From Mobula hypostoma (lineage: Eukaryota): a DNA stretch of 64,000 nucleotides. This document shows positions 1,760 to 54,900 of this stretch, one piece after another. The position numbers were made by a program, and so were the translations under genes. The notes below the pieces were generated by a model. The model worked only from the letters and a program-made list of their open reading frames with translations. It was not told the origin of the DNA and did no database searches. The stretch is taken from assembly GCF_963921235.1 (NCBI RefSeq), contig NC_086097.1, forward strand, positions 92,196,001-92,260,000. Reading direction: 5' to 3'. Position 1 is the first letter of the stretch. Each line of letters begins with the position of its first letter.

Positions 1760-1763
1760 TAAG

Positions 1764-20694: not shown

Positions 20695-20850
20695 CAAAAC
20701 ACAGCAGATTTAAGAAATCTGAAATAAAAACAAAAATGTTAGGGATATTGAGACAGCATCTGTGGAGAATGAAATAGCTTCAGAACTACAAAGTTAATTC
20801 TGTTTCTCTCCCCACAGATGCTGCCTGATCTGCCTGGGAGTCCAGTATCT
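20695..20850. mobile_element. Degenerate Penelope-derived fold-back element
   Basis: Inverted arms CAGCATCTGTGGAGA / TCTCCCACAGATGCTG. Confidence 0.55.
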
Positions 20851-20909
20851 CTCATTATAGTTATCCACCAAGAATATCTACATAATTGGAACCCCATTGA
20901 TAACCTGCA

Positions 20910-21330
20910 AGCATCCTGTCTGGGTAGTCTCCAGCCCCTTGGCATGAACATTGAATTCTCCAACTTCCGGTAATTCCCTCCCCCTCCCTTCCCCCATTCC
21001 ATTTTCACTCTGTCCCCTCCTCTGGCTGCCTATCACCTCCCTCATGGTTCCGCCTCCTTCTACTGTCCACTGTGCTTTCCCCTATTCCTTCTTCACCTCT
21101 CCTGCCTACCACCTCCCTGTTTCCCCTCCCCCACCCCTTGACCCTTCCCCTTACTGGTTTTTCACCTGGACCCTACCAGCCTTCTCCTTCCCACCCTCCC
21201 CCCACCTTCTTTATAGGGCCTCTGCCCCTTCCCTCTACAGTCCTGACGAAGGGTTCCGGCCCGAAACATTGACTGATCGTTTCCACAGATGCTGCCCGAC
21301 CTGCTGAATTCCTCTAGCATTTTGTGCATG
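20910..21330 (+). mobile_element. Penelope-like element 3' fragment
   Basis: LGSLQPLGMNIEFSNFR (GIY-YIG C-terminus), pyrimidine-rich UTR, hammerhead motif and terminal repeat. Confidence 0.8.
21238..21275 (+). ncRNA. Minimal type I hammerhead ribozyme motif, partly decayed
   Basis: CAGTC-CTGACGA-AGGGTTCCGGCCC-GAAA-CATT-GACTG: helix I CAGTC/GACTG, helix II GGG/CCC, intact core boxes. Confidence 0.75.
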
Positions 21331-21934
21331 CTGCTCACTCCCTTAATCACCTTGTTACAACACTCCAAGTCTTCTTCAATAGCATCTCCCAAACTCCCAC
21401 GTCTACCACTAGAAACAGAACAACAAGATGTGCAGGAAATAACAATCTTTGCAGTGCCAGAGACCTGAGTTCAACCCTGAGTGACCTCAGATGCTGAGAT
21501 AGTGGCAAGGAAGAAGCACCAGTGGGTCTTCGGGCAAAGTGGTGTTAGTGTATGAAATAACTGGACATTGATGAATGAAGATCAGACATTCTGTTCTTTA
21601 TAATATATATGCCAATGACCTGATTATAATGATACTTCCTGATAAACTTCTCCAGCTGTAAAGAAGTGTATCTGCAGCCTGCTCTCCTGCACTCATGTGC
21701 TTTACGCATTTCACTGCACTAAGGAACATTGTACTGTTATTCTCAGACAGCAGATACGATCTCAGCTTTCCTTCCCAACACCCCAACTCTTAGAGCACGC
21801 GCTTGATTTTCAAGTATTTATCCAATGCCTTTTTGGAAGTTACTATTGACCACATGCTATACAAATGGAAATCTTTCTCAAGCACTTCACAGGCAGTGCT
21901 ACTTTAAAAGTTCAATTTGCCGCTGACTTGGGAA

Positions 21935-22795
21935 ATCAGCCAGCATAATCAAAGACCCCCCTCCGACCCTGGTCATTCTCTTATCACACCCCTCCCATCA
22001 GGCAGAAGATACAAAAATTTGAGAACACACAGCACCAGGTCCAAGGACAGCTTCTAGCTCAGTGTTAGAAGACTAGTTAGTGGACTTTTATACGAGGGGT
22101 GACTGATAAGTCCGTGGCCTAAGGTAGAAGGAGTCAATTTTAGAAAACCTAGCACAATTATTTTTTGCTACATTTACACAATTAGTCCAGCGGTTGTGGA
22201 ACATACAGATCCCTTCTTTGTAGAAGTTGGTGTCTTGGACCTTCAGAAAGTGGTCTGCAGCAGGGGTGATTGATAGGTTCGTGGCCTAATGTAGAAGGAG
22301 ATGAATTATTAACTTGAAACTTTCTACATTTTCACCCAAAGAGTTGAACTGCACGTGCATGTAACAAGAGCTATATAACCCATCTCCTTCTACCTTAGGC
22401 CACGAACTTATCAGTCACCCCTGCTGTGGACCACTTCTACAAAGAAGGGATCCGTATGCTCCACGATCGCTGGACTAAGTGTGTACATGTAGGAGGGGAC
22501 TATGTTGAAAAATAAATATGCTAGGTTTTCTAAAATTGACTCCTTCTACTTATCAATCACCCCTTGTACAATAAAATTGAACGCTTGATCTCTCAGTCCA
22601 CCTTGCAATTTACCTGTCTTTCTCTCCTGCACCTTCTCTGTAACTGTAACACATTACTCTGCATTCTGCTTTTGTTTTTCCTTTTGTAACACCTGGATAT
22701 ACTTATGTATGGGATGATCTGTCAGGGTTGCATCCAAATGAAAGCTTTTCATTGTATACAAGTACATATGGCAATAAACAAACTAATTCCCAATT
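21935..22795 (+). mobile_element. Rex/Babar-like 3' fragment, interrupted by the mariner MITE
   Basis: SIIKDP..LPSGRRY..TR.KDSF motif; AATAAA and short-repeat tail at ~22773-22795. Confidence 0.55.
22093..22566. mobile_element. Mariner-derived palindromic MITE
   Basis: TA flanks; TIR CGAGGGGTGACTGATAAG / CTTATCAATCACCCCTTG; the whole element is an inverted repeat; HFYKEGIRMLHDRWTKCVHVGGDYVEK* at ~22432-22514. Confidence 0.88.
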
Positions 22796-22829
22796 ACTGT
22801 TACGTCAGTAACCAAAGTGCACATCACAA

Positions 22830-23000
22830 GATCCCATAAAGAGCACTGGAGTGAAGCAGTTATATTTCGCAGAGTTAATTGAGTTGATTTGGCGCAGACT
22901 CTGGGAGAAATAGTCTTCTTCAAAGAGTGTCACAGGAGCATTTACATTCAGTTGAACCGTAGGTCTGGCCTTGATTTACCTTCCCGTTTCAAATCTGGAA
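22830..23000 (-). mobile_element. Deu-domain SINE relic
   Basis: Resembles the reverse complement of the Deu core also seen near 36650 and 47740. Confidence 0.4.
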
Positions 23001-24026
23001 GCTTTGAATATGCAATAAAGAAAAAGTTCAATTTTTGTTCATTTTTTTGCGCAGAGAGAGAGGGGCTTGGGGGCTGATGTTCTTGTGCTTTGTGTGGCAG
23101 GAGAAGGGTTTGGCGGGGATGATAGTGTTGCTGTTCGTTTTGTGTGTGGGTGGGTGTGGGAGTGTGGCATTGCTGTTTCCCTTGGACTGACTTCCATGTT
23201 TGTCTTTGTTCCGTAGTTATCTGGAGAAGATGAATCTCAGAGCTGTACACTGCTAACATACTTTGATAGTAAATGAACCTTTGAACATTTCAGTTCAGGA
23301 ACTGGTTCACCAAATGAACGACCCACCTTCTAACTTAGTGACATATGTTTCTCCATTGAACAAAGGAGGGCAGGTATAGGATCTCAGTTTGAGATGCACT
23401 TCAAGACAAAGTAACTTCTGGATGTGAAACTTTGAGTGATGATAAGGCAGCAGATCTGGAGCAAGATGATGTGATAAAGAGTTAGATTTCAGTAGAAGCC
23501 AGTGGCAGTTCCAAGTAAACAACATGATCTCTGTCACGTAAGATCGAACACAGAGATGACTGCAAAGAGTTGAAAGACATTGTAAACAACTAAGAAGAGA
23601 AAATGATTTGTAAATTACATAAAGAAAGTCCACTGACTTGCCAATAGTCACAAGATGCTAACTGCCTCGGCTCAATTAAAACACACAGACTTCTGAAGTA
23701 AAATTGAAAAGATGATGAAATTAATCATCAGACTTCAGACTTCGTGTTTGCTTTTGGAAGCTTTACCACCACTGGGACCTCATATTAAAACTCAGGTAGA
23801 CAATTACATTCATATAAGACCATAAGCTATAGGAGCGGAATTAGGCCATTGCCCTGACCAGTCAAGAATCTATCAACCTCTGCCTTAAATATACATAAAA
23901 ACCTGGCCTCCACAGCTGCCTGTGGCAAAGAATTCCACAGATTCACCAGTTTCTGGCTAAAGAAATTCAGGCTCATCTTCATTCTAAAATGATGCCCCTC
24001 TAGTCTGAGGCTTAATCTCAGGTTTT

Positions 24027-27000
24027 CAGTGGTGTATCTAAGGTATGGCAGGTATGGCACCTGCCCTGGGCGCCACTTGAAGGGGGGGGGGCACCACTGA
24101 GCAGTTTCTTTTACAGTCAGACAAGCCATCCTCAGATAATGAAAAAAGAATTTTCTTCAGATGTATAATCTGTCTTTGATTATCACAGGTGAGAAGCACT
24201 AGGATGGCCTTATTTCAGAGCATTGTGTAAGAAAACCATGAAATGTTTCTTCACGAAGAAAGAAAGTGGAGCTGAAAGACGGAAGAGATGAAAGTTGGAG
24301 GTGGAGGAAGCCAAGAAGTTGAGCAAGTTCCTCATGCCCTTCTTTGAAAAGCCCGGAACAAGTAGTTCGACACATTCCATAGAGTTGCCTGCAGCTGCTA
24401 CAAGTTTGTTAAAATCCAAAGGTGGATCAAGTACAAATGCGTCACAAGCCGAGGAGGAAGTCAAGTCAGATAAATCCGAGTATGACTAGATTAAGAGTGA
24501 GGATGCCACGGAGAACATGGACATGACAGGAGGGGATGACGGTGGTGGTGGTGATGTTGAGTTTATTGACAAGATTTTGCCTGACAAAATTGAACCTGAT
24601 GACACTGAACCTAGTGAACTGGATGGTATCAAAGAGCCTCGAACTGTCATACCAGGAGCGTCTGAACAGCATGACACTGGACTTCTGAAGTTCGACAAGG
24701 ACACTGGAAAAGCAATTCTGCCTGACGTGTTGAGAACAGAAATAATAAAGCTGGGTTTGAAGTATTTCCAGAACAGTGAGGGGCCTTTCCTACCAACAAG
24801 TAACCGCTCAATGAACAAAACTTGGTTCAAGAGGAAATTGGGAAATGGTCGTGGTGAGGAAGTGACTCGCTCATGGCTGGTCTATTCCCCTTCTAAAAAG
24901 TCTGCATTTTGTATCTGTTGTCTTCTCTATCCCTGGTCAGACCATCAATCCTCATTGCAGCAGGAAAGTGGATTCAACCAGTGGAAAGCACCTGAAAGGA
25001 TTAGTGTTCATGAAAATGCCAAGAATCATCAGGAATGCTTCACACAGTGGAAAGAAATGGAAAGAAATTTAGCTGGAAACGGACGAGTTATTGACATGGT
25101 ATTTCAGTCACAGGTTGAGAAGGAAAAGCAGAAGTGGTGTGATATCTTGACGAGAATCCTTCACTGCATAAAATTCCTTGTGACTCAGAACCTTGCTTTG
25201 CAAGGACACAGGGAGTCACTTCAGCTAGATGATGACTCCAATGTGGGAAATTTCCTTGGCTTACTGAAACTACTGGCCACCTTTGACCCTGTCATAAAAG
25301 AACACCTCACTCATTTGGAAAGTCATTCTGGATCCACGTCTTATCTTTCACCGGGTGTTCAGAACGAATTCATTCACATGATGGCATCCACTGTTCGCCA
25401 GAGTTTACTGAGAAGCACTCATAAAGCCAAGTACTATGGTCTCATGTTCGACTCGACTCCTGATCAGGCGCACCGTGAGCAGATGTCAGAATCAGCGAGG
25501 TATGTGGAAGTTGATTTTGAGAGGAAAACAGTCCGTGTTAGAGAGTCCTTCCTTGGTTTTATCCAGATAAGCCAGAAGGATGCTGACAGCTTGGTTGAAG
25601 ACATCTTGAAACAGCTAGAGAAGGACGAAATGGAGCTACAAGATTGTCGGTCACAGTGCTATGACAATGCTGCTGTGATGGCTGGACACAGAAGAGGTGT
25701 TCATCAAAGAATAAGTGAGAAAAATAACCTGGCAGTGTTTGTGAATTACGACAATCTCTCAATCAACTTGGTGGGTGTACAAGCAGCCAAGCAGGATACA
25801 ATGATGGTCACTGTTTTTGGAACTATCAAAGCTCTCTATGTGTTTTTCTCTCATTCAACACAGCGCTGGGAAAAACTCTAAAACGCCATGCCTTATGTTG
25901 TTAAGTTGGAATCCGAAACCAGGTGGAGTACAAGGACAGAAGCAGTGAAGCCCATCAACAAGTACCTTGAGGAGATAGTTCAAGTTCTCCAGGACACGAT
26001 AGACAATGAAAACGAGACCAGTGAAACAAGAAGTGACGCAAGGCAGCTGTACAACCGCATGTTGAGTTACAATTTTCTGATTTTGTTCGGATTTTGGAAC
26101 AAAGTACTCATTCACATTGACCGTATTCAAAAGAGGCTGCAGGATCCTAGCATGAACTTCCATGATGCTGCCCTGGATTTGAAAGCCCTCCAAGATGATT
26201 TTTATGATGAAAGAGAAGTGTTGGTCAGTGAGTCACTCGAAGAAGGAGTCGGTCTCTGTCAAGAATGGAATATTGAAGTTGAAAGACGTCAGAGACAAAA
26301 GAAACGAATGGCTGATGAGAACTAGAGAGACACTGGGTTAACAGCTAAGGAGAAAATGAAAAGAGTCATGAAGGGAACACTGCCATCTTCACAGAGAAAA
26401 GGACAAAAGGTTCACTCGCTTGCACGACAATGACACCAAGTTTGGGTTCCTTCTCGATGTCGAGGGACTGTGTTACGGCACCAACAGTAACGACCTAAAG
26501 AAGAAGTGTGAAAATTTGGGTGAATTGTATAGCTCTGATGTTGATGGATAGCAGCCATATGAAGAAATTTTGGATTGCAGAATGTTGCTATCAAGGCAGG
26601 TCAACATGAAAATATCAAGACCTGAAGAGCTTCTTGAATTTATTGTTCAGTATGGAGATGAGAGCGTCTTCCCCAATCTTCGAATTGTTATTCAGATAAT
26701 GCTAACCATCGCAGTTTCCATCGCCAGCTGTGAGAGATCATTCAGCAAGTTAAACCTAATACTTTCGTATTTGAGAGCCTCCATGGGTCAAGGCAAACTC
26801 TGTGATCTTGCTCTGCTGAGTGTAGAAATAGAAGAAACTGAAAAAAACGGACTTTGATCACATCATAGACCAATTTGCATCAGTGAAAGCAAGGAAGGTG
26901 TGGTTATAATTTTCATGTGGTGTCATAATTTGTTAATTAAAAGATTAACGAGCTTGACTTGTACTTCTGAGCTGATATTATGGTAAAATTATCTAAAAGA

Positions 27001-27075
27001 TGGGTGTCAGATGTTTGGACAGGGGCGCAATTTCAGTGCTTGCCATAGGCGCTATTTTCCGTAGATACGCCCCTG
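24027..27075 (+). mobile_element. hAT DNA transposon, full length
   Basis: TIRs CAGTGGTGTATCTA / TAGATACGCCCCTG (12/14 match); decayed 8-bp TSD CAGGTTTT / CTGGTCTT. Confidence 0.92.
24238..26910 (+). pseudogene. hAT transposase (ZMYM1-like; TTF-type Zn finger, DUF4371-like core, dimerisation domain)
   Basis: WLVYSPSKKSAFCICC, LMFDSTPD, CYDNAAVM, ETRW and SCERSFSKL; interrupted by stops and frameshifts. Confidence 0.9.
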
Positions 27076-29374
27076 CTGGTCTTAGACTCTCCTATCATGG
27101 GAAACATCCTCTTCACAGCCATTCTATCAAGGCCTTTCACCATTCGACAAGTTTCAAAGAGGTCACCCCTTATTCTTATTCATGTGAATACAGGCCCAGA
27201 GTCATCAAACGCTCTTCATATGACAAGATATTCAATCCTGGATTCATTTTCGTGAACCTCCTTTGAACCCTCTCCATGTTCAGAATGTCCTTTCTAAGAT
27301 AAGGGCCCAAACTGCTCACATACTTCAAGTGAGGCCTCACCTGTGCTTTATTGAGTCTCAACATTATATCCTTGCTTTTATATTCTAGTCCTCTTGAAAT
27401 AAGAGCTAACATCACATTTGCCTTCCTCACCACAGACTCAACCTGCAAATTAACCTTTAAGGAATCCTGCACAAGGACTCCCAAGTCCCTTTGCAGCTCA
27501 GATTTTTGTATTTTCTCTCCATTTAGAAAATAGTCAACATTTTCATTTTTTCTACCAAAGAGCATGATCTTACACTTCCTGATACTGTATTTCATCTACC
27601 ATTTCCTTGCCAATTCTCCTCATCTGTCTAAATCCTTCTGTACCCTCTCTACTTCCTCAAAACTACCTGCCCCTCCAACCATCTTCATACCATCTGTAAA
27701 TTTTGCATCAAAGCCATCAATTCTATCATCCAAATTAATATACAACGTAAAAAGAATCTGACCCTTGTGGAACACCACTAGTCATCAGCAACCAACTAGA
27801 AAAGGCTCCCCTTTATTTCCACTCTTTGCCTCCTGCCAATCAGCCACTGCTCTATCCATGCTAGAATCTTTCCTGTAATACCATGGACTTGTAACTTGTT
27901 AAGCAGCCTCATGTGTGGCACCTTGTCAAAGGCCTTCTGAAAATCCAAGTACACAACATCAACCAACTCTCCTTTGTCTATTCTGCTTGTTACTTTTTCA
28001 AAGACTTCCAGCAGAATTGTCAGGCTAGATTGAGGAAACCATACCAAACTGATTACGGCCTATTTTATCATGTGCCTCCAAGTACCCTGAGACCTCATCC
28101 TTAATAATAGACTCCAAAATCTTCCTAACCACTGACGTCAAACTAAATGACCTAGAGGTTTCTCCCTCTCTCCTTTCTCGAAGAGTGGAGTAACATTTGC
28201 AAATTTTCAGTCTTCCGGAACCATTCCAGAATCCAGTGATTCCTGAAAGATCATTACTAATGCCTCCACAATCTCTTCAGCCACCTCTTTCAGAACCCCG
28301 TGGGTGTACACCATCTGGACCGGGTGACTTATCTACCTTCAGACCTTTCATTTTCCCAAGAACCTTCTCCCTAGAAATGGTAACTTTATGCACTTCATGA
28401 CCCCTGACACCTGGGACATCCACCATACTGCTAGTGTCTTCCACAGTGAAGACTGATGCAAAATATTTATTCAGTTCATCCCCTATTACTATCTCTCCAA
28501 CATCATTTTCCAATGGTCCGATATCCACTCTCACCTCTCTTTTACACTTTATCTATCTGAAGAAACTTTTGATATTCTCTTTAATATTACTCATTAGCTT
28601 ACTTTCATATTCTATCTTTACCTTCTTAATGACTTTTTTTAGTTGGTTTCTATTGGTTTTTAAAAGCTTCCCATCCTCTAACTTCCCACTAATTTTTGCT
28701 CTATTAAATGCCCTCTCTTTGATTTTTAGCTTGGCTTTGACTATTCCTGTTAGCTACAGTAGTGTCATCTTTTCTTTAGAATACTTCTTACTCTTTGGGA
28801 TGTATCTATCCTGTGCCTTCCAAATTGCTTCCAGAAATTCCAGCCATTGCTGCTCTAATGTCATCCTGCCAGTGTTCTTTTCCAATCAATTCTGGCCATC
28901 TCCTCTCTCATGTGTTGTAATTCCGTTTACTCCACTAGAATACTGATGCATCTGACTTTAGCTTTTCCTTCTCAAATTTCTGGGTGAACTTGATCATATT
29001 ATGATGAATTTCCCCTAAGGGTTCTTTTACCTTAAGCTCTCTAATCAATTCCGGTTCATCACACAGCACTATCCAGAATAGCTGATCCCCAACTGGGCTC
29101 AGCCATGAGCTGCTCTAAAATGCCATCTTGTAGGCTGTCTATATATTCACCCTCCTGGAATATAACTCCCAAGTAACCATTTTTCAGTACAGTATTTGAG
29201 CATCCGAATTAGGCCCAGTTTTTAAACTCACTTCCAGGTATCCGGTAATATATGTGGATCCTTAGATTAGATTTCAGTCTAATATCCATCCACACCAGCA
29301 TCTAAAATACATAAATTATTCAAATCACTCAACTATAAACAAGGGTGATATATGTGTGGAAGTTGCAAATTCTC

Positions 29375-29560: not shown

Positions 29561-29584
29561 GTAATGGCCTGAGAGCCAATGTAT

Positions 29585-31034: not shown

Positions 31035-33307
31035 CTACCACCTCTTTTTCCTCCAAACATACCTTTGCTCATTGCAGCCAAAAAGTTCTATTTTAACTTT
31101 ATCTGTCCACAGGACTTGTTTCCAAAATGCATCAGGCTTGTTTAGATGTTCCTTTGAACCTTTTGAATAGAACTTTTTGGCCGCAATGAGCAAAGGTATG
31201 TTTGGAGATAAAAGGGTGCAGAATTTCATGAAAAGAACCCCTCTCCAACTGTTAAGCATGGGGGTGGATCGATCATGCTCTGGGCTTGTGTTGTAGCCAG
31301 TGGCAGTGGGAACATTTCACTGGTAGAGGGAAGGATGAGTTCAATTAAATACCAGCAAATTCTGGAAGCAAACATCACACCGTCTGTAAAAAAGCCAAAG
31401 ATGAAAAGAGGATGGCTTCTACAATGGGATAATGAACCTAAACACACCTCAAAATCCGCAATGGACTACCTTAAGAGGCGCAAGCTAAAGGTTTTAAAAT
31501 GGCCCTCACAGTCCCCCGACCTAAACATAGAAACATAGAAACATAGAAATAGGTGCAGGAGTAAGCCTTTTGGCCCTTCGAGCCTGCACCACCATTCATT
31601 ACGATCATGGCTGATCATCCAACTCAGAACCCTATACCTGTCTTCTCTCCATACCCCCGATCCCTTTAGCCACAAGGGCCTTATCTAACTCTCTCTTAAA
31701 TATAGCCAATGAACTGGTCTCAACTGTGTCCTGTGGCAAAGAATTCCACAGATTCACCACTTTCTGTGTGAAGAAGTTTTTCCTCATCTCAGTCCTAAAA
31801 GGCTTCCCCTTTATCCTCAAACTGTAACCCCTCATTCTGGACTTCCCCAACATCGGGAACAATCTTCCTGCATCTAGCCTGTCCAATCCCTTTAGAATTT
31901 TATACGTTTCAATCAGATCCCCCCTCAATCTTTGAAATTCCAGAGAGTATAAGTCTAGTCGATTCAATCTTTCATCATATGAAAGTCCTGCCATCCCAAG
32001 AATCAATCTGGTGAACCTTCTTTGTACTCCCTCTATGGCAAAGATGTCTTTCCTCAGATTAGGGGACCAAAACTGCACACAATACTCTAGGTGTGGTCTC
32101 ACCAAGGCCTTGTACAACTGCAGTAGAACCTCCCTGCTCCTGTACTCGAATCCTCTTGCTATGAATGCCAGCATACCATTCGCCTTTTTCACTGCCTGCT
32201 GTACCTGCATGCCCACTTTCAATGACTGGTGTACAATGACACCCAGGTCTCGTTGCACCTCCCCTTTTCCTAATCGGCCACCATTCAGATAATAATCTGT
32301 TTTCCTGTTCTTGCCACCAAAGTGGATAACCTCACATTTATCCACATTAAATTGCATCTGCCATGAATTTGCCCACTCACCTAACTTATCCAAGTCACCC
32401 TGCATCCTCTTAGCATCCGCCTCACAGCTAACACTGCCGCCCAGCTTTGTGTCATCTGCAAACTTGGAGATGCTGCATTTAATTCCCTCGTCTAAGTCAT
32501 TAATATATATTGTAAACAACTGGGGTCCCAGCACTGAGCCTTGCGGTACCCCACTAGTCACTGCCTGCCATTCTGAAAAGGTCCCGTTTATTCACACTCT
32601 TTGCTTCCTGTCTGCCAACCAATTCTCTATCCACCCCAATACCATGTTCTTTAAGTTTGCATACTAATCTCCTGTGTGGGACCTTGTCAAAAGCCTTTTG
32701 AAAATCCAAATATACCACATTCACTGGTTCTCCCCTATCCACTCTACTAGTTACATCCTCCAAAAATTCTATGAGATTCGTTAGACATGATTTTCCTTTT
32801 ACAAATCCATGTTGACTTTGTCCAATGATTTCACCGCTTTCCAAATGTGCTGTTATCACATCTTTGATAACTGACTCTAGCAGTTTCCCCACCACATCGA
32901 GAATCTGTGGATAGACCCCAAAAGAGCAGTACATGCAAGACGGCCCAAGAATCTCACAGAACTAGAAGACTTTTGCAAGGAAGAATGGGCAAAAATCCCG
33001 CAAACAAGAATTAAAAGACTCTTAACTGGCTACAAAAAGCATTTACAAGCTGTGATACTTGCCAAAGGGGGTATTACTAAGTACTGACCATGCAGGGTGC
33101 CCAAACTTTTGCTTCAGCCCCTTTTCCTTTTTTGTTATTTTGAAACTGTAAAGGATGGAGATAAAAAAGTTTTCTTGCTTAAAATATTAAAAAAATGTGT
33201 CATCTTTAACTTCATGCCTTTTGGAAATCAGTTCATCTTTTCCTCGCTTAGCTATTCACAGTAACAGAGGTTTTGACCAGGAGTGCCCAAACTTTTGCAT
33301 GCCACTG
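31035..33307 (+). mobile_element. Tc1 (DD34E, IR/DR type) transposon, 5' end lost or rearranged, interrupted by CR1
   Basis: VKHGGGSIMLW, QWDNEPKHTS, WPSQSPDLN / IENLW; right IR with GTGCCCAAACTTTTGC repeated at ~33097 and ~33283, ending CACTG plus TA. Confidence 0.9.
31529..32895 (-). mobile_element. CR1 LINE 3' part inserted in the Tc1 transposase
   Basis: ORF 31632-32561 with GVPQGSVLGP and FADDTKL; (TATGTTTC)n tail. Confidence 0.95.
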
Positions 33308-33309
33308 TA

Positions 33310-33487: not shown

Positions 33488-33918
33488 GGGCAACCGTAAC
33501 AGGCTGCTGCATCCGAGGTGACCCCGTGACCGAGGCCTAGTCCTCGCCACAACCCAGGCAATGCAGCTCCCCCGCCATTGGTGCTTCCAATGAACCAGTA
33601 AACTTGACTTGCTGGATTCTATATTACCAATGTTCAACGATCCAAGTAAAAACATCCAAGGCAATCACTCGTTCTGTTTGTTGGATCGGATCCAACCAAC
33701 TGCAGATGCTGTAATCTGGAGCCACAAATAATCTGTACGGGGAGAAGGAATTGTCAGTGTTTCAACTCAAAATATAAACAGTTCCTCTACCTCCTCTGAA
33801 TGCTGCTAGACCTGTAGAGTTCCTCTAGTAGAATGAGCAACTTATCTTGTTTGACAATATAGATTAACAATTAACTGGACATCCGTAAGGCCAGGTCAAG
33901 TAAGAGAAAATAATACTT

Positions 33919-38734: not shown

Positions 38735-40032
38735 GTTCAGAGAAACTTTACAAGGATGGTGCTGGATCCACAGGACTTGAGTTACAAGGAAAGATCGAAC
38801 TGATCACAAACAAGAGGAAGTCCGCGGATGCTGGAAATCCGAGCAACACACACAAAATACTGGAGGGATTCAGCAGGCCAGGCAGCATCAATGGAAAAAA
38901 GTGCCGTCGACGTTACGGACCAAAACCATTCGGCAGGACTGAAGAAAAAAAGATGAGGAGTGCCCCACCCTCATAGGTGGGGGGAGAGGATGGAACAGCA
39001 CAAGGCAATGGGTGAAACCAGGACAGGGAGGGGTGAAGTAAGAAGCCAGAAAAAGCGGGATCTCCCAGTGGCCACCCATTTTAATTCCACGTCCCATTCC
39101 CATTCTGACATGGCAGTCCATGGCCTCCTCTACTGGTGTGATGAGGCCACACTCAGGTTGGAGGAACAACACCTTATATTCCATCTGGGTCGCCTTCAAC
39201 TTGATGGCATGAGCATAGATTTCTCCAACTTCAGGTAATGCCCCACCCTCTTCACCATTCCCCATTCCCTTTTCCTTCTCTCACCTCATCTTCTTGCCTG
39301 CCCATCTCTGGTGCTCCTCCTCCCTTTTCTTTCTTCCAGGGCCTTCTGTCCTCTCCTATCAAATTCCCCCTCCTCTAGCCCTTTATCTCTTTCACCAATC
39401 AACTTCACAGCTTTTTACTTCACTCCTCCCCCTTCCCCAGTTTCACCTATCACTTTGTGTTTCTTCTTCTCCCCACCCCCCCCAACCTTTTAATTCTCCT
39501 CCTCTTATTTTTTCTCCAATCCTGTTAAGGATCTCAGCCCAAAACGTAGACTGTACTCTTTTCCACAGATGCTGCCTGGCCTGTTGAGTTCCTCCAGCAT
39601 TTTGTGTGTATTGCATAGGTTAGGACTGTATTCCTTGAAACGTAGAAGATTGAGGGGAGAGATGATTGATTTGTATAAAATTATGAGGCATATAGGTAGG
39701 GTAAATGCAAGCAGGTTTGTTTTTACTGAGGTTGGGTAGGACTACGACCAGAGGCATGGGGTAAGGGTGAAAAGTGAGATGTTTAAGGGGAATATGAGGA
39801 GGAATTTCTTCACTCAGAGGGTAATGAGAGTGTGGAATGAGCTGCTGGCACAAGTGGTGCATGTAAGTTCGGTTTCAACATTTTAAGAGAAGTTTGGATA
39901 GGTACATGGATAGTAGGGATATAGAGGGCTATGGTCCCAGTGCAGGTCGATGGGAGTATGCAGCTTAAATGGTTTCAGTATGGACTAGATGGGCCGAAGG
40001 GCCTGTTCTGTGCTGTACTTCCCTATGACTCT
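38735..40032 (+). mobile_element. CR1 3' fragment interrupted by a Penelope element
   Basis: VQR.FTRM at 38735-38800 continues as LGLYSL.RRRLRG at ~39616; CTATGACT tail. Confidence 0.75.
38805..39614 (+). mobile_element. Penelope-like element with an inverted terminal duplication
   Basis: DLPVATHFNSTSHSHSDM...RLEEQHLIFHLGRLQLDGMSIDFSNFR (GIY-YIG C-terminus); 38805-39040 is an inverted copy of the 3' end; decayed hammerhead motifs at 38905-38941(-) and 39517-39553(+). Confidence 0.85.
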
Positions 40033-41081: not shown

Positions 41082-41301
41082 CCACAAAAGGCACTGGAGA
41101 AACTCAGCAGGTCATGTGCAGGAAAATAGACAGCTGACACTTTGGGTCAAGACCCATTATCTGGGTCCTTCTTTATCCACATGAGGGGTCTCAAAAGGTC
41201 AACTGTACACTTCACTCTATGGACGGTGTCTGACCCCTGAATTCCTCGCGTGCTTTATCTATTGCTCCAGATTCCAGCAACTGCAGTCTCTTGCATCTCC
41301 A
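41082..41301. mobile_element. Old Penelope-derived fold-back element
   Basis: Decayed inverted arms; flanking AAGGATGCT repeat (41073-41081, 41302-41310). Confidence 0.6.
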
Positions 41302-42706: not shown

Positions 42707-42883
42707 ACAAACAAGAGAAAATCTGCAGATGCTGGAAGACCAAGCAACACACACAAAATACTGGAGGAACTCAGCAGGCCAGGCAGCAGTCCTGATGAAG
42801 GGTCTCGGCCCGATACATCGACTATTTACCGTTTTCCATAGATGCAGCCTGGCCTGCTGAGTTCCTCCAGCATTTTGTGTGCG
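42707..42883 (+). mobile_element. Hammerhead-bearing fold-back insertion
   Basis: 15-bp TSD TCATTTAAACTGAAC (42692-42706, 42884-42898); inverted arms; motif CAGTCCTGATGAAGGGTCTCGGCCCGATACATCGACT at 42787-42823. Confidence 0.88.
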
Positions 42884-43836
42884 TCATTTAAACTGAACTT
42901 AGTTTACATACAACACCTCATTAATCCAGTTTTAGATTCAGAACCCAGGAGGCAGCTATGCAGGGGATTTTAACTCTCTGAGACATGTTCTAAGGCACAT
43001 AGTTTAACTTATTCACAGCTAGGTCTGTCTGTATAAAAATTTCTCAAACAACTGTAAAATCTATAATATATTGAAAATCATTTAATTAAAAGTGGAACTC
43101 TTTAGGTCATTATAAACCCCTCATGCCCTCTAAAGTCATAATTTAACTCGTGGACTCTGGTGAACCTAAGGTCAAAATTTCATTTGTAAGATTTGGTGCC
43201 CAGTGAATGTTTAACTTCAACCTTCTCCTGAGATCTCCACTATCACAGACAACTGGCATCATGGTCAGTTCCATCCACAAAATGTGAAATACTGGAGCCT
43301 TACACCCAAAAGCACTCAGGCTATGGTGGCAAAGTAGTAAGTTATTGAACATGTAATTAGGAAACAGAGGTCTAGAACTCTGATCCAGAGACAGGGAGTT
43401 TGAATCCCAAAGTGAAAAGTGATAAAATAATTCTGGAATGCTGCCCAAACTGCCGAGTTCCTCCAACATTTTGTGCACGTTGCCCATCTGCTTCACTATT
43501 GCTTTCAGGGAGGAAGTTCTGCCTTTCTTCCACAACTTGGCCTGTGTTTGATTCTAGATCCACAAATGTGGTTGACTCTCAGCTGCCGCCTCAGCCCAAG
43601 AACAGTTAGGGTTGGGCAAGGTAGACCAGTGCTGCCCATGTGCCCAGATCCTGTAAGCTAGATTTAAAAGGACAAGGCAGCTAGATGAGTTGATGCAGGT
43701 AAGATACTGGCATCAGCCTGACAGCATGGAAAATTGGATAAACTCCCTATCCACACAAATTCAACTAGCCTGATACCCACCAAGTCAAACTGCTCTCAAT
43801 TACTAGTAATTATGACTTTAAATATTATTACCTTAG

Positions 43837-44151: not shown

Positions 44152-44166
44152 ATTATTACCTTAGAG

Positions 44167-44242: not shown

Positions 44243-44250
44243 TCTTAGAG

Positions 44251-47332: not shown

Positions 47333-47679
47333 AAGCTCATGCAGCCACAGGGGCAATGTGCAAGAGAATATAAATGTCGGGACCTGGAGCTCAACGAACT
47401 ATGGAGGGAAATAGGAATAGACACTTTGCATGAGGACCCTCACCTAGACTGAAAAATACAGGGAAGACAACCTTTATAAAGAGGTGAGGGTAAGGGGTGG
47501 AGCAAATACTATGTAAAACTCTTTAGTGAGTGAATTCTTTCTGTGAATGTTTCTCTGTGCATGGTTAGGAGTTGATACTTGATCTATGCAGAAATGATTG
47601 TGAGGGTTATATGTCAAAAATTATAATTACTGCTCAAGTAAAAACAACACGTGGCAAGGTTCATTGGGAGTATTTATCT

Positions 47680-48110
47680 ACTCTGAGTTGGAAGATGGCG
47701 AGTTGAAGTCTCACTTCTTCAGTTGAGGTAATCTAAGCTGGCACTCCTGAGGGAGCATTGCATTACTAGGGGCTGGTCAGTTGGATGAGGGTGCTGTAAA
47801 CATGAGAAAATCTGCTGATGCTGGAGATCCAAAGCAACACACACAAAATGCTGGAGGAACTCAGTAGATCAGGTAGCATCTATAGAAATGAACAAACAGT
47901 CAATGTTTTAGTCTGAGTCCTGAAGGTGGTCTTGGCTCAAAACATCAACTGTTTATTAATTTCCATAAATTCTGCCTGACATGTTGAGTTCCTCCAGCAT
48001 TTCGCGGATGAGGCCAGAGACTCTCTGACATATGGACGTTAAAGACCCAAGAGCAATTCTGAGGAAGGACAGGGTAATGTTTTCTGGTGTGCTCAGCCTT
48101 AAATAAGCAT
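47680..48110 (+). mobile_element. Deu-domain SINE relic interrupted by a fold-back element
   Basis: GAGGGAGCATTGCA..TTGGATGAG | GGACGTTAAAGACCCA..TTTTCTGGTGTGCT core pieces. Confidence 0.55.
47800..48003. mobile_element. Penelope-derived fold-back element, decayed core
   Basis: Arms AAATGCTGGAGGAACTCA / TGAGTTCCTCCAGCATTT. Confidence 0.75.
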
Positions 48111-48497
48111 CATTAAAAGCAAGTCAATACCTTACTGATTTTTGAAGAACATTGTTTTATAACATTAAACATGTTGAAAAATACATCATCTGGGATGTCC
48201 CCAGAGTATCTTGATCCATTGTAGCATGCCTCTTTCTTTGTGCAAATTGCCTGATCATATGGCTAAACATGAGGGCCCACAGTCCAACTCCGGAACAAAT
48301 GGAATTGCAGGAGGTCATTTAGTGGGAGGAAACATCAAACAATCACCAAACCTGCTGTTGTAAGATGGCTTTCGGCGGAATGAAAAACAGGTGATTCACT
48401 TATTGTCCAGAAATAGGCACAAAGTGTTTTTTTAACTACTGTGAAGGCATGTACAGAGTTGTAATCATCCTATTTTAGCTGCTATTAACATTACTGT

Positions 48498-48811
48498 GGG
48501 CACGTGGCCAAGTGGTTAAAGCATTGGACTAGCAACCTGAAGGTCGTGAGTTCAAGCCCCAGCCGAGGGAACGTGTTGTGTCCTTGAGCAAAGGCACTTA
48601 ATCACACATTGCTCTGTGACGACACTGGTGCCAAGCTGTATGGGTCCTAATGCCCTTCCCTTGGACAACATTGGTGTCGTGGAGAGGGGAGACCTGCAGT
48701 ATGGGCAACTGCTGGTCTTCCATACAACCTTGCCCAGGCCTGCGCCCTGGAGAGTGAAGACTTTCTAGGCGCACATCCATGGTCTCGCAAGACTAACGGA
48801 TGCCTTTACAT
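48498..48811 (+). mobile_element. tRNA-derived SINE, copy 2
   Basis: A box TGGCCAAGTGG, B box GAGTTCAAGCC, 13-bp TSD TTAACATTACTGT. Confidence 0.9.
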
Positions 48812-49856
48812 TTAACATTACTGTTTTGAAATTAGATTTCACTTTTATCTGGCACACTGAACTGCTGACGTGCCCTTGTCTAAACGTCATTCGCAAAGTT
48901 GAGGAAATGTAGCTCTGAGAAAACTAATTAACATCATCTTCAGACTGCTTGCTGCATTGAAACATGTCCTGTGTCTTTCTCCACTGCAGCTGTCTGCCAG
49001 ATTGCTGACAGGAAGTGTATTGATGCTTTAGATACGCAAGAGGCTGCCATTGAGGTGAGTTGAAACTCGGCGGGGAGGGACTGTTTCCAAGATCGGCATC
49101 CTCCCAATCCAACCTCACCCTACTCACCCCCGACACTCCCCATTTCCTGAGTTCATCAGCACAAATGATGATTTGTGCAACAAAAGGAGCCATGCCAGTG
49201 CCTGGGTTCATCTCTGCGGAGATCACAGCTCTGCATTGCCGCAGCAAGCACTGCAAAACTGAGAAATGTGTGAAAAATACAGCAAGCAGTACGAGCTCAG
49301 GCAAGGTACTGCATATCAATAATCCGAGCAAGATCCTTTAGTTCACCTCTCCTATCTGACTTGTCAGGGTGGTTGCCCCCTGTTTTGTAAAAGTCACAGA
49401 CTGCAAATAATGGGTCCAATTTCTCTTAGTAAGGCAGAGACTAGCATTGTGCTTGCCAATGCTGTCATCATACATCGAATAATGTTAAAGAAATGTCAGC
49501 CACACGACTGCAAATCAAGTCTGGAGAAGTCCAGTTCAGTTTCAGAAAGTGTGAGATTTCAACCAGCATGACTCATAGGGTCATAGAGACACCCTGGAAA
49601 CAAGCCCGGCAGCCCATTGAGTTTGCACCTCATTTACACTAATATTACATTAATCTCATTTTCACTCTCCCCATATTCAATCACTAAGGACAGTTTATGG
49701 TGGTCATTGACCCCACCAATCCGCATTGGGCGGAAACTGGCACACCCAGAGGAAACCCCCACGGTCACAATGAAAATGTGGAGACACCACATAGACAGGA
49801 CTGGAGATCCGGATAAAAAGTGGGTCTCTGGTGTTGTGAGACATGGGCTCTGCTAG

Positions 49857-50066
49857 ACTCACAACATGCTGGAGGAACTCAGCAGGTCGGGCAGCATCCG
49901 TGGAAAAGATCAGTTGATGTTTTGGGCCGGAACCCTTCGTCAGGACAAAGGGTTCCGGCCCAAAACGTCAACCAATCTTTTCCACAGATGCTGCCCACCC
50001 TGCTGAGTTCCTCCAGCATGTTGTGAGTGTTGCTTTGACCCCAGCATCTGCAGATTATTTTGTGCT
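49857..50066 (-). mobile_element. Hammerhead-bearing fold-back insertion
   Basis: 13-bp TSD TGGGCTCTGCTAG (49844-49856, 50067-50079); two divergent motif copies meet at ~49940. Confidence 0.88.
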
Positions 50067-51019
50067 TGGGCTCTGCTAGTCTTTATCTGCAACTTACACA
50101 CAAAAAATACGCAATTCTTATGCTTCACTACCTTAAACCATCACGAGCACTGATGCATTTTCAAAAGAGCTGCCTCATCACACGTAAGAGTGCCATATAC
50201 TTTATTACGTTTGTTATTATTTGGGGATGTGCAAATTAATCCAATTAGTATTTGCAGTTCAATTAAACTCGCTTAGGTAATACTTTTAAATACAATTCTC
50301 GAACTCAAGAACTTCTGAAAATATTTTATAGGATATATGGGTCAGGAGGAGATGTCTCTTTCCAGAGACCAATATCAAAGGGGTTTCATCTGTTTCTTAA
50401 GATTTTTGGTGAACATATATCCAGAACTTGAAAAAAAAATTAAATAATTTAAAATACATTATTTAAAACCACATTCAACACCTTTTTTTTCAAATTCACT
50501 TGTTTGTGGCTGATGTTCACTGCTTCCAGCAGAGGATTTCAGTCAGAGCTTCCATTTAAAGTTGTGCCTGTAAATCTGGACATACATGGAGTATTGGGAA
50601 AATTTACTTTGGGTTGGGGGGGGGCAGTTATTAGCATGGTTTTCAGACTGTTTGTTACATTAAAACACGGCCCGTCGTATTTTCCACCATGGCTATTTAC
50701 AGAATCTGCAACATGCATCGTTGATGCCAGGATTTTTTGAAAGTGCCCTGTAGCCTTTTAAAACAAAAACAATATTGCTCTCCTGGTAGCCATACAACAG
50801 CAGTGTAAAATGTTACCATCAAAGGGAGTGACAGGGAAGGATTGTTTCCTGATCAACTCACTCGCCCTGCCGCAAGTTTGTCAGCTCAAGTTATGTCCCA
50901 TGAAAAGTGCAGCCCCCACCCGCTGGGAGGTACAGGTTCATCATACTGCAAGAGACGGCGCACTAAAGGAAGGAACTGGCAGCAATACAGAGGTTGTCTG
51001 CAACGGAGGGTTCTAGTTA

Positions 51020-51525
51020 TAATGAGAGGTTGGTTAAGCTGGGTTTATTCTCACAGTAATTCAAGAAGTTGAGAGGAGAACCTGTAGAGGTTTATTACAT
51101 TATGAGGGGTACAAGTCGGATAGAGTCTTTCTCTCAGGCCCAGGAGTTTAGAACAGGAGACTACAGATGTTGTACTCTGGAGCAAAAAAATGATATCCTC
51201 CAGCGGGTTGTCGTTTTTGTACAAGAACTGCATGGCAAGGATGTCCTTTACATTCCTCTCCTTTTGCAAACAGAATTTGAGGAATATCTGAGGGATAGGT
51301 TTTCCCACACAGAGGGTGGTAAATGTCTGGACTAAGCTGCCAGAGAAGGCAGATACAATTACGAGCTTTAAGAGACATTTGAACAGTTTATAGTAAGGAG
51401 AGCCAGTGAGGGATACAAACTTAATGTGGGAAAATGGGATTAGCATACAAAGGCATCACAGTCAGCATGGGGCAAGGTGGGCTGAAAGATTCCATTTCTG
51501 TGCTGCATGTCTGCATGATTCTGTG
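51020..51525 (+). mobile_element. CR1 3' fragment, old
   Basis: LRGE..EVY.IMRG..R motif and a CR1-type 3' UTR. Confidence 0.6.
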
Positions 51526-51977
51526 GCCCATGATAAAATCCAGCCCATTAATTCTTCCCCCTAACCTTTTCCATGGTCAGGGTTTCTCCAAGTTTCACAC
51601 ACAGAACCACATCCTTGGTTCCATTCTGGCAATCGGGTAACAGCAGCCCTTCCAGTGCTTTTGACTTCCCAAAACAGAGTGCCACACCAATGCATGTACA
51701 GGTTTAGGACAACATTGTTGCTGTGGTATTTTGTACCTCAACTTGTGTAATATTTTTCATTATTATTAGATTATTATCACATATACCAAGGTAGAGTGAA
51801 AACCTTGTCTTGCAAAATGTTATTACAGACCAATTCATTACATAGTACATTAAGGTAGCACAAAGTTAAACAATAGCAATGCAGAATAAAGAGTCCCAGC
51901 TACAAGGGAAGCCAAGTAAAGAATAAGACACAGGATAATAACGAGTAAGATTGTGAGATTGAGAGTCCATCTTATTG

Positions 51978-54900
51978 AGAGGACTGATAGAGATACCCGC
52001 ATGGTGTGTTGCCTCCCAGGTGCCAGGGTACGGGATGTCTCCGATCGGGTCCTGAATATTCTAAAGGGGGGGGAGCAGCCAGTTGTCTTGGTCCATGTTG
52101 GTACCAATGACATAGATAGGACAAAGGAGGAGGTCCTGAAGAGAGATTTCCAGGAGTTAGGAAGGAAGCTGAGAAGCAGGACCTCCAGGGTAGTAATCTC
52201 GGGATTGCTACCTGTGCCACGTGGTAGCGAGGGCAAGAATAGTCGGATCAGGCAGATGAATGCGTGGCTGAGAGACTGGTGTAGGGGGCAGGGCTTCAGA
52301 TTCTTCGATAATTGGGATCTCTTCTGGGGGAAGTATGACCTGTTCAAAAAAGACAGGTTACACCGGAACCTGAAGGGGACCAATACCCTGGCGGGAAAGT
52401 TTAATAGAGCTGTTAGGGAGGGTTTAAACTAATTTGGCAGGCGGATTAGAACCGGAATGACAGAGCGGAGGAAGGGGAAACAGAAATAAATCTAAGATAG
52501 TGAGCAGTAAAGTTGTCAAGAAAGACAGGCAGGTGATGGGGCAAATTTGTAGCCATTGGGATGAGTTGCAGTGAAATCAAAGAGAAAAGTATCAAATACT
52601 GGTCTTAAGGTGTTATACTTAAATGCACGCAGCATAAGGAATAAAGTGGATGATCTTGTCGTACAGCTACAGATTGGCAGGTATGATATTGTGGCCATCA
52701 CTGAGTCCTGGCTAAAGGATGCATGTCTCTGGGAGCTGAACGTCTAAGGATACACGGTGTATCGGAAGGATAGGAAGGTAGGCAGAGGGGGAGGTGTGGC
52801 TTTATTGGTAAGAAATGATATTAAATCATTAGAAAGAGGTGATATAGGATTGGAAGGTGCAGAATCTTTATGGGTTGAGCTAAGAAATAGCAGGGGGTAA
52901 AAGGACCCTGATTGCAGTTATTTATAGGCCTCCAAACAGCTGCAGGGATGTGGACTACAAATTACAACTGGAAATAGAAAAGGCTTGTCAGAAGGGCAGT
53001 GTTATGATAATTCTGGGGATTTTAACATGCGTGTGGATCGGGAAAATCAGGTCGGCACTGGATCTCAAGAGAGAGAATTTGTAGAATGTCTGCGAGATGG
53101 CTTTTTAGAACAGCTTGTTGTTGAGCCCACTAGGGGATCGGCTGTACTGGATTGGGTATTGTGTAATGAACCGGAGGTGATTAGAGAGATTGAGGTGAAG
53201 GAACCCTTAGGAGGCAGTGACCATAACATGATTGAGTTCACTGTGAAATTTGAAAAAGAGAAGCCGAAATCTAATGTGTCAGTATTTCAGTGGAGTAAAG
53301 GAAATTACAGTGGCATGAGAGAGGAACTGGCCAAAGTTGACTGGAAAGGGACACTGGGAGGAAGGACGGCAGAGCAGCAGTGGCTGGAGTTTATGCGAGA
53401 AGTGAGGAAGGTGCAAGACAGGTATATTCCAAAAAAGAAGAAATTTTCAAGTGGAAAAAGGATGCAACCGTGGTTGACAAGAGAAGTCAAAGCCAAAGTT
53501 AAAGCAAAGGAGAGGGCATACAAGGAAGCAAAAATTAGTGGGAAGACAGAGGATTGGGAAGTTTTTAAAACCTTACAGAAGGAAACCAAGAAGGTCATTA
53601 AGAGGGAAAAGATTAACTATGAAAGGAAGCTAGCAAATAATACCAAAGAGGATACTTAAATGCAAACAACAGGAATTCTGCAGATGCTGGAAATTCAAGC
53701 AACACACATCAAAGTTGCTGGTGAACACAGCAGGCCAAGCAGCATCTGTAGGAAGAGGTGCAGTCGACATTTCAGGCCGAGACCCTTCGTCAGTCCTGAC
53801 AAAGAGTCTTGGCCTGAAACGTCGACTGCACCTCTTCCTACAGATGCTGCTTGGCCTGCTGCATTCACCAGCAACTTTGATGTGTGTTGCAAAGAGGATA
53901 CTAAAAGCTTTTTCAAGTATATAAAGAGTAAAAGACAGGTGAGAGTAGGACCGATAGAAAATGATGCTGGAGAAATTGTAATGGGAGATAAGGAGATGGC
54001 AGAGGAACTGAACGAGTATTTTGCATCAGTCTTCACTGAGGAAGACATCAGCAGTATACCGGACACTCAAGGGTGGCAGGGAAGAGAAGTGTGCGCAGTC
54101 ACAATTATGACAGAGAAAGTACTCAGGAAGCTGAATAGTCTAAAGGTAGATAAATCTCCTGGACCAGATGGAATGCACCCTCGTGTTCTGAAGGAAGTAG
54201 CTGTGGAGATTGCGGAGGCATTAGTGATGATCTTTCAAAAGTCGATAGATTCTGGCATGGTTCCGGAGGACTGGAAGATTGCAAATGTCACTCCGTTATT
54301 TAAGAAGGGGGCAAGGAAGCAAAAAGGAAATTATAGACCTGTTAGCTTGGCATCCGTGGTTGGGAAGTTGTTGGAGTCGATTGTCAAGGATGAGGTTACA
54401 GAGTACCTGGAGGCATATGACAAGATAGGCAGAACTCAGCATGGATTCCTTAAAGAAAAATCCTGCCTGACAAACCTATTACAATTTTTTGAGGAAATTA
54501 CCAGCAGGCTAGACAAGGGAGATGCAGTGGATGTTGTATATTTGGATTTTCAGAAGGCCTTTGACAAGGTGCCACACATGAGGCTACTTAACAAGATAAG
54601 AGCCCATGGAATTACAGGAAAGTTACATACGTGGATAGAGCATTGGCTGATTGGCAGGAAACAGAGAGTGGGAATAAAGGGATCCTATTCTGGTTGGCTG
54701 CCAGTTACCAGTGTTGTTCCACAGGGGTCCGTGTTGGGGCCGCTTCTTTTTACATTGTACATCAACGATTTGGATTACAGAATAGATGGCTTTGTGGCTA
54801 AGTTTGCTGACGATACGAAGATAGGTGGAGGGGCCGGTAGTGCTGAGGAAACGGAGAGTCTGCAAAGAGACTTGGATAGATTGGAAGAATGGGCAGAGAA

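What the first reader, a model, noticed from the sequence alone, without database searches (positions are those of the whole stretch)
20695..53889. Mobile family of short fold-back elements built around a minimal hammerhead ribozyme (retrozyme-like Penelope derivatives)
Seen: related short insertions at ~20695, ~33695, 41082, 42707, 47800, 49857 and 53657, plus longer parents at 20910 and 38805. The best-preserved copies (21238, 42787, ~49910-49975, 53761-53828) give the consensus CAGTC CTGAYGA AGGGTYYCGGCCC GAAA C GTC GACTG. That reads as helix I (CAGTC/GACTG), the CUGANGA box, helix II (GGG/CCC), the GAAA box and a GUC cleavage triplet, with only a palindromic ACGT in place of helix III. Three copies have clean 13-15 bp TSDs. 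Established: Penelope-like elements carry minimal hammerheads in their terminal repeats, and these are thought to cleave as dimers. Inference: non-coding head-to-head derivatives were inserted by target-primed reverse transcription and are very dense here. They may be a propagating ribozyme-bearing SINE-like family or repeated products of one inversion mechanism. No single copy has a perfect core.
Basis: partly seen in the sequence, partly recalled or inferred. Interest (0 to 1): 0.72.

Follow-up and report, generated by a model that had tools for sequence, protein, structure and literature searches.

The report
Fold-back Penelope retrotransposon ends in ray
The short hairpin-shaped insertions with a tiny ribozyme motif are real, but they are the usual truncated, inverted leftovers of a very abundant Penelope-type jumping gene in a ray-like fish; the one unusual point is that one arm tends to begin at the same base, which may mark where the element's RNA starts.

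Summary
The copies, three 13-15 bp target duplications and the minimal hammerhead are real. They are 3' ends (pLTRs) of a Neptune-type Penelope-like element. Two longer copies carry its GIY-YIG C-terminus, 85% identical to a ray RT-endonuclease protein. Each fold-back is a tail-bearing arm head-to-head with a tail-less arm, the layout already described for PLE insertions. They are not one propagating SINE or retrozyme family: 4 of 4 short copies have different junctions and belong to different subfamilies, with no tandem units. In 3 of 4 the hairpin buries the ribozyme, and the fourth has a core mutation. No helix covariation was found. One point remains unexplained. The tail-less arm starts within 3 nt of the first base of helix I in 4 of 4 short copies. 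In contigs of two species, 8 of 26 listed joints end there too, with varied partners. This suggests reverse-transcriptase run-off at a fixed RNA 5' end, though alignment bias or a stall are not excluded. The scan found the same fold-back pattern before in two shark-type genomes. Mostly ordinary.

The parts
20918..21335 (+). 5'-truncated PLE copy: last ~17 codons of the GIY-YIG endonuclease (stop 20971-20973), pyrimidine-rich 3' UTR, hammerhead, tail-less end; no inverted arm, no TSD found
   Evidence: depth of paralogous contigs rises at 20917-20935 and falls after 21334
21238..21275 (+). Best-preserved minimal type-I hammerhead: helix I 21238-42/21271-75, CUGANGA 21243-49, bulged A 21250, helix II 21251-54/21259-62, GAAA 21263-66, predicted cut after 21270
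   Evidence: descriptor hit with 0 core mismatches; helix I and II pair probabilities 0.9-1.0 when folded alone; coordinates
21238..21241 (+). Reference position of the recurrent start of tail-less arms (first bases of helix I; preceded by a pyrimidine tract in long copies)
   Evidence: 4 of 4 short window copies; 8 of 26 listed joints end at 21236-21241
38799..39046 (-). Inverted, tail-bearing arm of the long fold-back (decayed hammerhead 38904-38941)
39047..39614 (+). Tail-less arm of the long fold-back: endonuclease C-terminus (39053-39238), 3' UTR, decayed hammerhead 39517-39553; the whole unit interrupts a CR1-like LINE (name by recall), no TSD found
42707..42883 (+). Short fold-back: 40-nt tail plus inverted arm (42707-42788), tail-less arm from 42787; hammerhead in the loop with A14 changed to U; 15-bp TSD 42692-42706/42884-42898
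47796..48005 (+). Short fold-back, older; junction at about 47916-47918; doubtful 8-bp TSD 47783/48006
49857..50066 (-). Short fold-back of the same subfamily as copy 21238; arms 90% complementary with a 2-nt loop; G12 changed to A; 13-bp TSD 49844-49856/50067-50079
53657..53889 (+). Short fold-back of a third subfamily; arms 94% complementary with a 2-nt loop; G8 changed to A in the tail-less arm; 13-bp TSD 53644-53656/53890-53902; sits in a LINE reverse-transcriptase frame
20695..20850 (+). Decayed fold-back of an older subfamily, centre largely lost
   Evidence: I10; E 2e-4
33695..33850 (+). Decayed fold-back
   Evidence: (E 7e-7)
41085..41290 (-). Decayed fold-back in the opposite orientation, tail at the right end
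   Evidence: (E 2e-6)
43437..43483 (+).
   Evidence: E 2e-8

Best explanation
These are independent, dead-on-arrival insertions of a very high-copy Neptune-type Penelope-like retrotransposon of a cartilaginous fish, most probably a ray. The hammerhead is the element's ordinary pLTR minimal ribozyme, carried along. Likely route (steps inferred, not shown here): the element's dimeric RT/GIY-YIG protein nicks both target strands 13-15 bp apart. Each nick primes a cDNA inside the pLTR RNA, one at the outer start site (giving the ~40-nt tail) and one at the inner site (no tail). The tail-less cDNA often stops at the first base of helix I, and its 3' end anneals by 2-3 bases to a variable place on the other cDNA. 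Repair then leaves a head-to-head palindrome between target duplications. Shown here: PLE identity, arm/tail asymmetry, TSDs, unique partner junctions with microhomology, several subfamilies. Inferred: two-sided priming, and why one end is fixed.
For: Endonuclease C-terminus in both long copies; best protein hits are ray RT-linker-GIY-YIG proteins at 85% and 77% identity over the whole 61 aa, with a CxxxxCxxC linker and a weak Pfam GIY-YIG match. Exactly one arm has a 38-45-nt tail in 5 of 5 well-preserved fold-backs. Tail arms end at 4 different places in 4 of 4 short copies, each with 2-3 bases shared with the start of the other arm. The two arms of one element are 92-93% alike in the 3 young copies, against 55-78% between short elements. 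Listed joints in public contigs have many different partner ends. Papers: inverted pLTR with a tail on one arm and an 8-10-bp TSD (PMC3846280 passages; PMC8557442 passages); minimal hammerheads 100-700 bp apart on opposite strands (PMC4209133); both strands nicked and extended, with two internal RT starts that define the tail (PMC11167929).
Against: No whole genome was held, so only 4 short copies could be read in full. One search showed 15 of 36 joints in one table and 12 of 13 in another. One joint (21239 with 21201) has depth 99.7 against about 15-20 for single joints, two more lie close to it, and the 21273 partner occurs in both species, so some junctions are shared or recurrent. [quoted passage not shown] Two long copies lack a TSD. 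The Pfam GIY-YIG match in the homologues is below the curated cut-off.
Confidence: 0.87

Rival explanations
1. [quoted passage not shown]
For: 4 of 4 short window copies start within 3 nt. 8 of 20 listed joint ends in 21230-21320 fall in a 6-nt stretch, 4 of them exactly at 21239 (P 1.4e-4 against uniform; 5 of 17, P 0.012, after collapsing look-alike rows). The site reads as an initiator-like YYANWYY (motif recalled) in copy 38799 and in about half of laid depth (21237 A>T), and as pyrimidine tract plus CAG. In D. virilis the intron's 3' end maps to the 5' end of helix I (PMC4209133), and PLE promoters lie in the pLTR (PMC2377424 passages).
Against: YYANWYY occurs at 1.25% of window positions and is absent from copy 21238 itself. 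The whole UTR is pyrimidine-rich. 21238-41 is also where other subfamilies begin to align with the reference, and only the best-supported joints were shown. Contigs show no RNA starts (table 6 empty).
Confidence: 0.45
2. Sub-model: the fixed end is a reverse-transcriptase stall at the ribozyme or at the start of the C/U-rich tract, trimmed back to a microhomology, plus detection bias.
For: Many copies read through this point (depth upstream is of the same order). Short inverted microrepeats recur inside the hammerhead. Partner ends also gather at 21263-21282.
Against: A polymerase moving from the 3' side meets helix I at its 3' strand (21271-75), not at 21239. The four window copies were read without a reference edge.
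Confidence: 0.4
3. Alternative route to the same structure: one cDNA folds back and primes on itself, and the endonuclease later trims one end (self-priming, as proposed for rotifer PLEs).
For: Palindromic junctions with microhomology. Model proposed in PMC3846280 (passages); the tail is ascribed to endonuclease resolution in PMC8557442.
Against: The fixed end is on the tail-less arm in 4 of 4, and a target-primed tail-less cDNA cannot supply the tail by copying itself. In 2 of 4 copies the snap-back would need a 3-bp stem with a 2-nt loop.
Confidence: 0.2
4. The fold-back itself is a propagating non-autonomous SINE- or retrozyme-like family that uses the ribozyme.
For: High density (10 related loci in 64 kb), clean TSDs, one multi-copy joint and one partner position seen in two species.
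Against: Unique partner junctions in 4 of 4 and different subfamilies. No tandem units. Hammerhead helices have probability 0 in 3 of 4 whole-element transcripts, and the fourth has a core change. 0 of 9 pairs covary.
Confidence: 0.05
5. MITE-like DNA transposons, or hairpins formed after insertion.
For: Long inverted repeats of 42-95 nt.
Against: Repeats are not terminal (the tail is on one side only). TSDs are long and vary in length. The arms are the 3' end of an RT-endonuclease element.
Confidence: 0.02

Closest known systems
Inverted-pLTR insertion units of endonuclease-positive Penelope-like elements (PMC3846280, PMC8557442, PMC2377424; passages read)
   Same: Head-to-head inverted 5'-truncated copy, a 30-40-nt tail on one arm only, TSDs, microhomology or palindrome at the junction.
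   Different: Most units here are pLTR-only (about 180-230 bp), TSDs are longer (13-15 bp against 8-10 bp in the rotifer), and one junction side is nearly fixed. I found no mention of that last point in the passages read.
Minimal type-I hammerheads of metazoan PLEs (PMC4209133, parts 1-2 of 4 read)
   Same: Helix I of 4-5 bp, a bulged base before helix II, G10.1-C11.1, palindromic 15.2-16.2 without helix III, opposite-strand pairs.
   Different: Helix II is 4 bp rather than the 7-8 bp of Schistosoma; cleavage was not tested here.
Neptune clade PLEs (clade features from PMC8557442 passages)
   Same: C-terminal GIY-YIG with a CX2-5CxxC linker in the closest proteins.
   Different: No full-length element in the window and no phylogeny run; Nematis shares the linker.
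Non-LTR retrozymes (PMC7229834 passages; bioRxiv 10.64898/2026.07.22.740005 part 1 of 5 and passages)
   Same: Short, non-coding, PLE-pLTR-related, with a type-I hammerhead.
   Different: Retrozymes are head-to-tail tandem repeats of 150-450 bp, mostly with canonical hammerheads, and give circular RNAs. These units are single head-to-head insertions.
L1 twin priming (recalled; seen only in the search listing)
   Same: Two target nicks prime two cDNAs that join by microhomology to give an inversion.
   Different: In L1 the two cDNAs cover different parts of one RNA; here they overlap, which needs two templates or two passes.

Membership tests
Endonuclease-positive PLE (Neptune type) | C-terminal GIY-YIG endonuclease upstream of the pLTR | tested here: met
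   39053-39238 matches the C-terminus of ray RT-GIY-YIG proteins, 85% over 61 aa, E 2e-25; the same end is in copy 20918
Endonuclease-positive PLE (Neptune type) | CX2-5CxxC linker between RT and endonuclease | tested here: inconclusive
   present in the closest homologues P0002, P0003, P0006; that part is not in the window
Endonuclease-positive PLE (Neptune type) | RT phylogeny places it in the clade | not tested
   no PLE RT in the window copies; no tree run
Endonuclease-positive PLE (Neptune type) | Inverted 5'-truncated pLTR with a 30-40-nt tail on one arm, and a TSD | tested here: met
   tail on one arm in 5 of 5 well-preserved fold-backs; clean TSD in 3 of 5
PLE minimal hammerhead | CUGANGA and GAAA boxes, NUH triplet, helices I and II | tested here: met
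   copy 21238 complete; 0 hits in 15 shuffles; no variant in either box among the 40 best-supported of 143 variant rows
PLE minimal hammerhead | Palindromic 15.1-16.1 in place of helix III | tested here: met
   ACGT in about 75% of laid depth in both DNA runs; intact in 4 of 10 window arms that cover it
PLE minimal hammerhead | Helix covariation | tested here: not met
   0 of 9 pairs with a two-sided change among 7 window copies; too few and too closely related to be a strong test
PLE minimal hammerhead | Self-cleavage as a dimer | not testable with these tools
   needs an in vitro assay; cofolding natural copies was uninformative
Non-LTR retrozyme | Head-to-tail tandem repeats, each with a hammerhead | tested here: not met
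   all window units are single or head-to-head
Non-LTR retrozyme | Circular or monomeric self-processed RNA | not testable with these tools
   only contigs were served; no RNA ends shown
SINE-like propagating family | Copies share one full structure, including the junction, and group together | tested here: not met
   4 of 4 different partner junctions; copies group with long parents or alone; a minority of shared joints is seen

The most novel reading that the evidence does not exclude
The propagating unit is not the fold-back but a short pLTR RNA (or the extreme 5' end of the element's mRNA) that begins exactly at the first base of the hammerhead. A dimeric PLE protein would copy two such RNAs from both target ends and build a new palindrome at every insertion, possibly with the RNAs held together by the ribozyme's palindromic dimer contact. 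The very many junctions in ray genomes would then map the RNA start, the ribozyme cut and the order of events in PLE integration, which remain open questions.
Probability: 0.25. Interest if true: 0.55.

Novelty: new member of a known kind. Interest (0 to 1): 0.27.

Why it matters
As a class of element it is ordinary: the layout and the ribozyme are described for PLEs. Its value is as material. Tens of thousands of distinct contigs (33,458 and 22,505 laid in two DNA runs) make ray genomes a large natural record of PLE integration. A fixed junction side, if it holds genome-wide, would separate two-sided priming from self-priming and locate the RNA's 5' end. Dense self-complementary insertions are also a likely source of double-stranded RNA and A-to-I editing, as reported for lizard Penelope and a palindromic frog repeat (PMC5625713 passages).

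Tried and rejected
No whole genome was held, so the genome-wide catalogue could not be made. A 21-base pattern gave 0 matches in viral contigs, 2 in metagenomes and 1 in prokaryote genomes; all 3 match only over about the pattern itself and are chance. Rfam: no hammerhead family; mir-3926 and Plastid-psbJ-4 hits are below gathering score and reflect the hairpin. Pfam on the 61-aa fragment gave nothing meaningful. No RNA holder was listed as such; two runs guessed to be RNA were laid, and contigs cannot show starts, ends or level. The higher RNA-run depth downstream of the cut site was rejected as evidence, because subfamily mix and alignment edges explain it. Loose ends at 21280-82 are a subfamily indel edge, not molecule ends. 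Consensus fold of 5 tail arms: 19 pairs, 0 compensatory; arm 38799-38941 folds no better than shuffles, z -0.01. Helix I indices were wrong and were redone. The arm alignment misplaces the first columns of two arms, so their identities are slightly low. A sequence look-up of earlier findings returned only unrelated notes and a relatives look-up nothing. The dimer-cleavage paper PMC5785218 is not held and was seen only as a reference title. Eight paper searches listed no description of this element in sharks or rays and no report of a fixed junction side; subscription papers, Repbase/Dfam and all supplements were not seen and may hold both.
Full report
Observation. The listed loci are real and related. 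A profile built from 11 arms finds 15 arms at E<1e-3, four of them not in the model. Exact TSDs flank three short copies (15, 13 and 13 bp), a doubtful 8-bp pair flanks a fourth, and none is convincing at the other six loci tested. A minimal-hammerhead descriptor finds two sites in the window and none in 15 of 15 shuffles. Copy 21238 has all invariant core bases and both helices, and lacks only the palindromic base. Many departures in other copies are CpG-type (23 of 65). Rfam models do not detect the motif.

Identity. Window 39053-39238 translates to the end of a GIY-YIG endonuclease, and copy 20918 carries the last residues of the same domain. One protein search gave 7 hits among 12 candidates. 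The best are ray proteins at 85%, 77% and 75% identity over the full 61 aa, and their sequences show RT, a CxxxxCxxC linker and GIY-YIG (the Pfam match is below cut-off). That layout fits the Neptune clade as described in PMC8557442 (passages); no tree was run. The host is therefore most probably a cartilaginous fish, likely a ray (inference). Laying contigs of four public runs on 20860-21400 at 80% likeness placed 33,458, 22,505, 2,551 and 1,821 contigs, so the family is very large in two species; depth there is not a copy number.

Anatomy. Each fold-back is an antisense arm that starts with a 38-45-nt tail, joined head-to-head to a sense arm that ends before the tail; this holds in 5 of 5 well-preserved units. 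This is the described PLE unit: an inverted 5'-truncated copy with a tail on one arm and a TSD (PMC3846280 passages; PMC8557442; PMC2377424 passages). Opposite-strand pairs of minimal hammerheads 100-700 bp apart were already noted (PMC4209133, parts 1-2 of 4). A purified lizard PLE nicks and extends both strands and starts at two internal sites whose distance is the tail (PMC11167929, parts 1-2 of 4 and passages).

Family or mechanism. In copy-21238 coordinates the tail arms of the four short copies end at 21243, 21245, about 21255 and 21290, each sharing 2-3 bases with the start of the other arm. Arms of one young element are 92-93% alike. Tail-less arms of different short elements are 55-78% alike, and copy 49857 is closer (87%) to the long endonuclease-bearing copy than to any other short one. 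There are no tandem units. In whole-element folds the hammerhead helices have probability 0 in 3 of 4 copies; in 42707 they can form (helix I 0.43-0.58, helix II 0.72-0.8) but A14 is changed. No pair covaries among 7 copies (0 of 9), a weak test. So the fold-backs are products, not a lineage. Against this stand one joint at depth 99.7 (single joints 15-20), two neighbours of it, and one partner position seen in both species: a minority of junctions are shared or recurrent.

The unexplained point. The tail-less arm begins within 3 nt of the first base of helix I in 4 of 4 short copies; the long fold-back starts far upstream, and the decayed copies were not counted. One search showed 15 of 36 joints in one table and 12 of 13 in another, 26 distinct. 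Eight have an end at 21236-21241, four of them at 21239, with partners at 21195, 21198, 21201, 21267, 21273 (twice), 21282 and 21319. Among the 20 ends in 21230-21320 (two 3' ends left out) this is P 1.4e-4 against uniform, or 5 of 17 and P 0.012 after collapsing look-alike rows. The caveats are real: only best-supported rows were shown, the joint kind is not given for the second table, and other subfamilies start to align with this reference at the same place. The site follows a pyrimidine tract (85-95% over 20 nt in 3 of 3 long arms) and can be read as a splice acceptor or as an initiator-like motif (recalled; 1.25% of window positions match, and copy 21238 does not). In D. virilis the intron ends at the 5' end of helix I. 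I put run-off at an RNA 5' end at 0.45 and a stall or bias at 0.4.

Mechanism. The most likely route is two-sided target priming by a dimeric protein: the tail-less cDNA stops at the fixed point and anneals to the tail-bearing cDNA. Self-priming (PMC3846280) fits less well, because the fixed end is on the tail-less arm and two copies would need a 3-bp stem with a 2-nt loop. It is not excluded if trimming follows. Ribozyme cleavage was not tested; the lizard study found it dispensable for insertion in vitro.

Comparison and novelty. It works like, and on the tested features belongs to, endonuclease-positive PLE insertion units with minimal hammerheads. It fails the tandem-repeat feature of non-LTR retrozymes (PMC7229834 passages; bioRxiv 10.64898/2026.07.22.740005 part 1 of 5 and passages). 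Eight searches listed no paper on this element in sharks or rays, and a recent ray genome preprint has no occurrence of Penelope or PLE in its main text. Repeat databases, subscription papers and supplements were not seen. After I had fixed my reading, two earlier scan notes on shark-type genomes gave the same ordinary verdict; they are unchecked notes, not support. Verdict: new member of a known kind, interest 0.27.

Noticed in passing
window 20860-21400, laid runs X15 and X17: The two runs guessed to be RNA list 16 and 16 places of A>G change against 4 and 3 in the DNA runs, with no T>C excess. A weak hint of A-to-I editing; individuals are unmatched and most rows were not shown.
   Followed up: partly
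window 21271 (run X15): One opposite-strand joint ends exactly on the first base after the predicted ribozyme cut, and several partner ends lie at 21263-21278; some templates may have been cleaved. Too few to judge.
   Followed up: no
window 20940-20948: A second cluster of joint ends (5 listed joints) inside the endonuclease end; may be an alignment edge or a second truncation hot spot.
   Followed up: no
window 21201/21239 (run X1): A joint at depth 99.7, several times that of single joints: possibly a small amplified or recurrent fold-back junction.
   Followed up: no
window 53644-53902: The 53657 insertion plus its duplication adds 246 bases, in frame, to a LINE reverse-transcriptase frame, but begins with a stop codon.
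   Followed up: partly
window 22095-22549 and 31044-31214: Nested long inverted repeats (39-62 nt arms) and a 171-bp element with 49-nt arms; MITE-like, unrelated to the PLE arms.
   Followed up: no
window 881-5474: Decayed retrotransposon with a SCAN-domain frame at 2140-3114 and two near-duplicate stretches at 881-1501 and 4930-5474; Gypsy-like by recall.
   Followed up: partly
window 24490-26325: Long DUF4371 frame (hAT-transposase-like by recall) interrupted by a stop.
   Followed up: partly
window 51920-52432 and 57578-61069: LINE copies with a GDSL-esterase first frame (57578-58522 scanned) and RT second frames; CR1-type by recall.
   Followed up: partly
protein P0007: A skate gene model named neuromedin-U receptor 1 contains this PLE endonuclease end (68% identity): an annotation artefact or an exonised insertion.
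   Followed up: no
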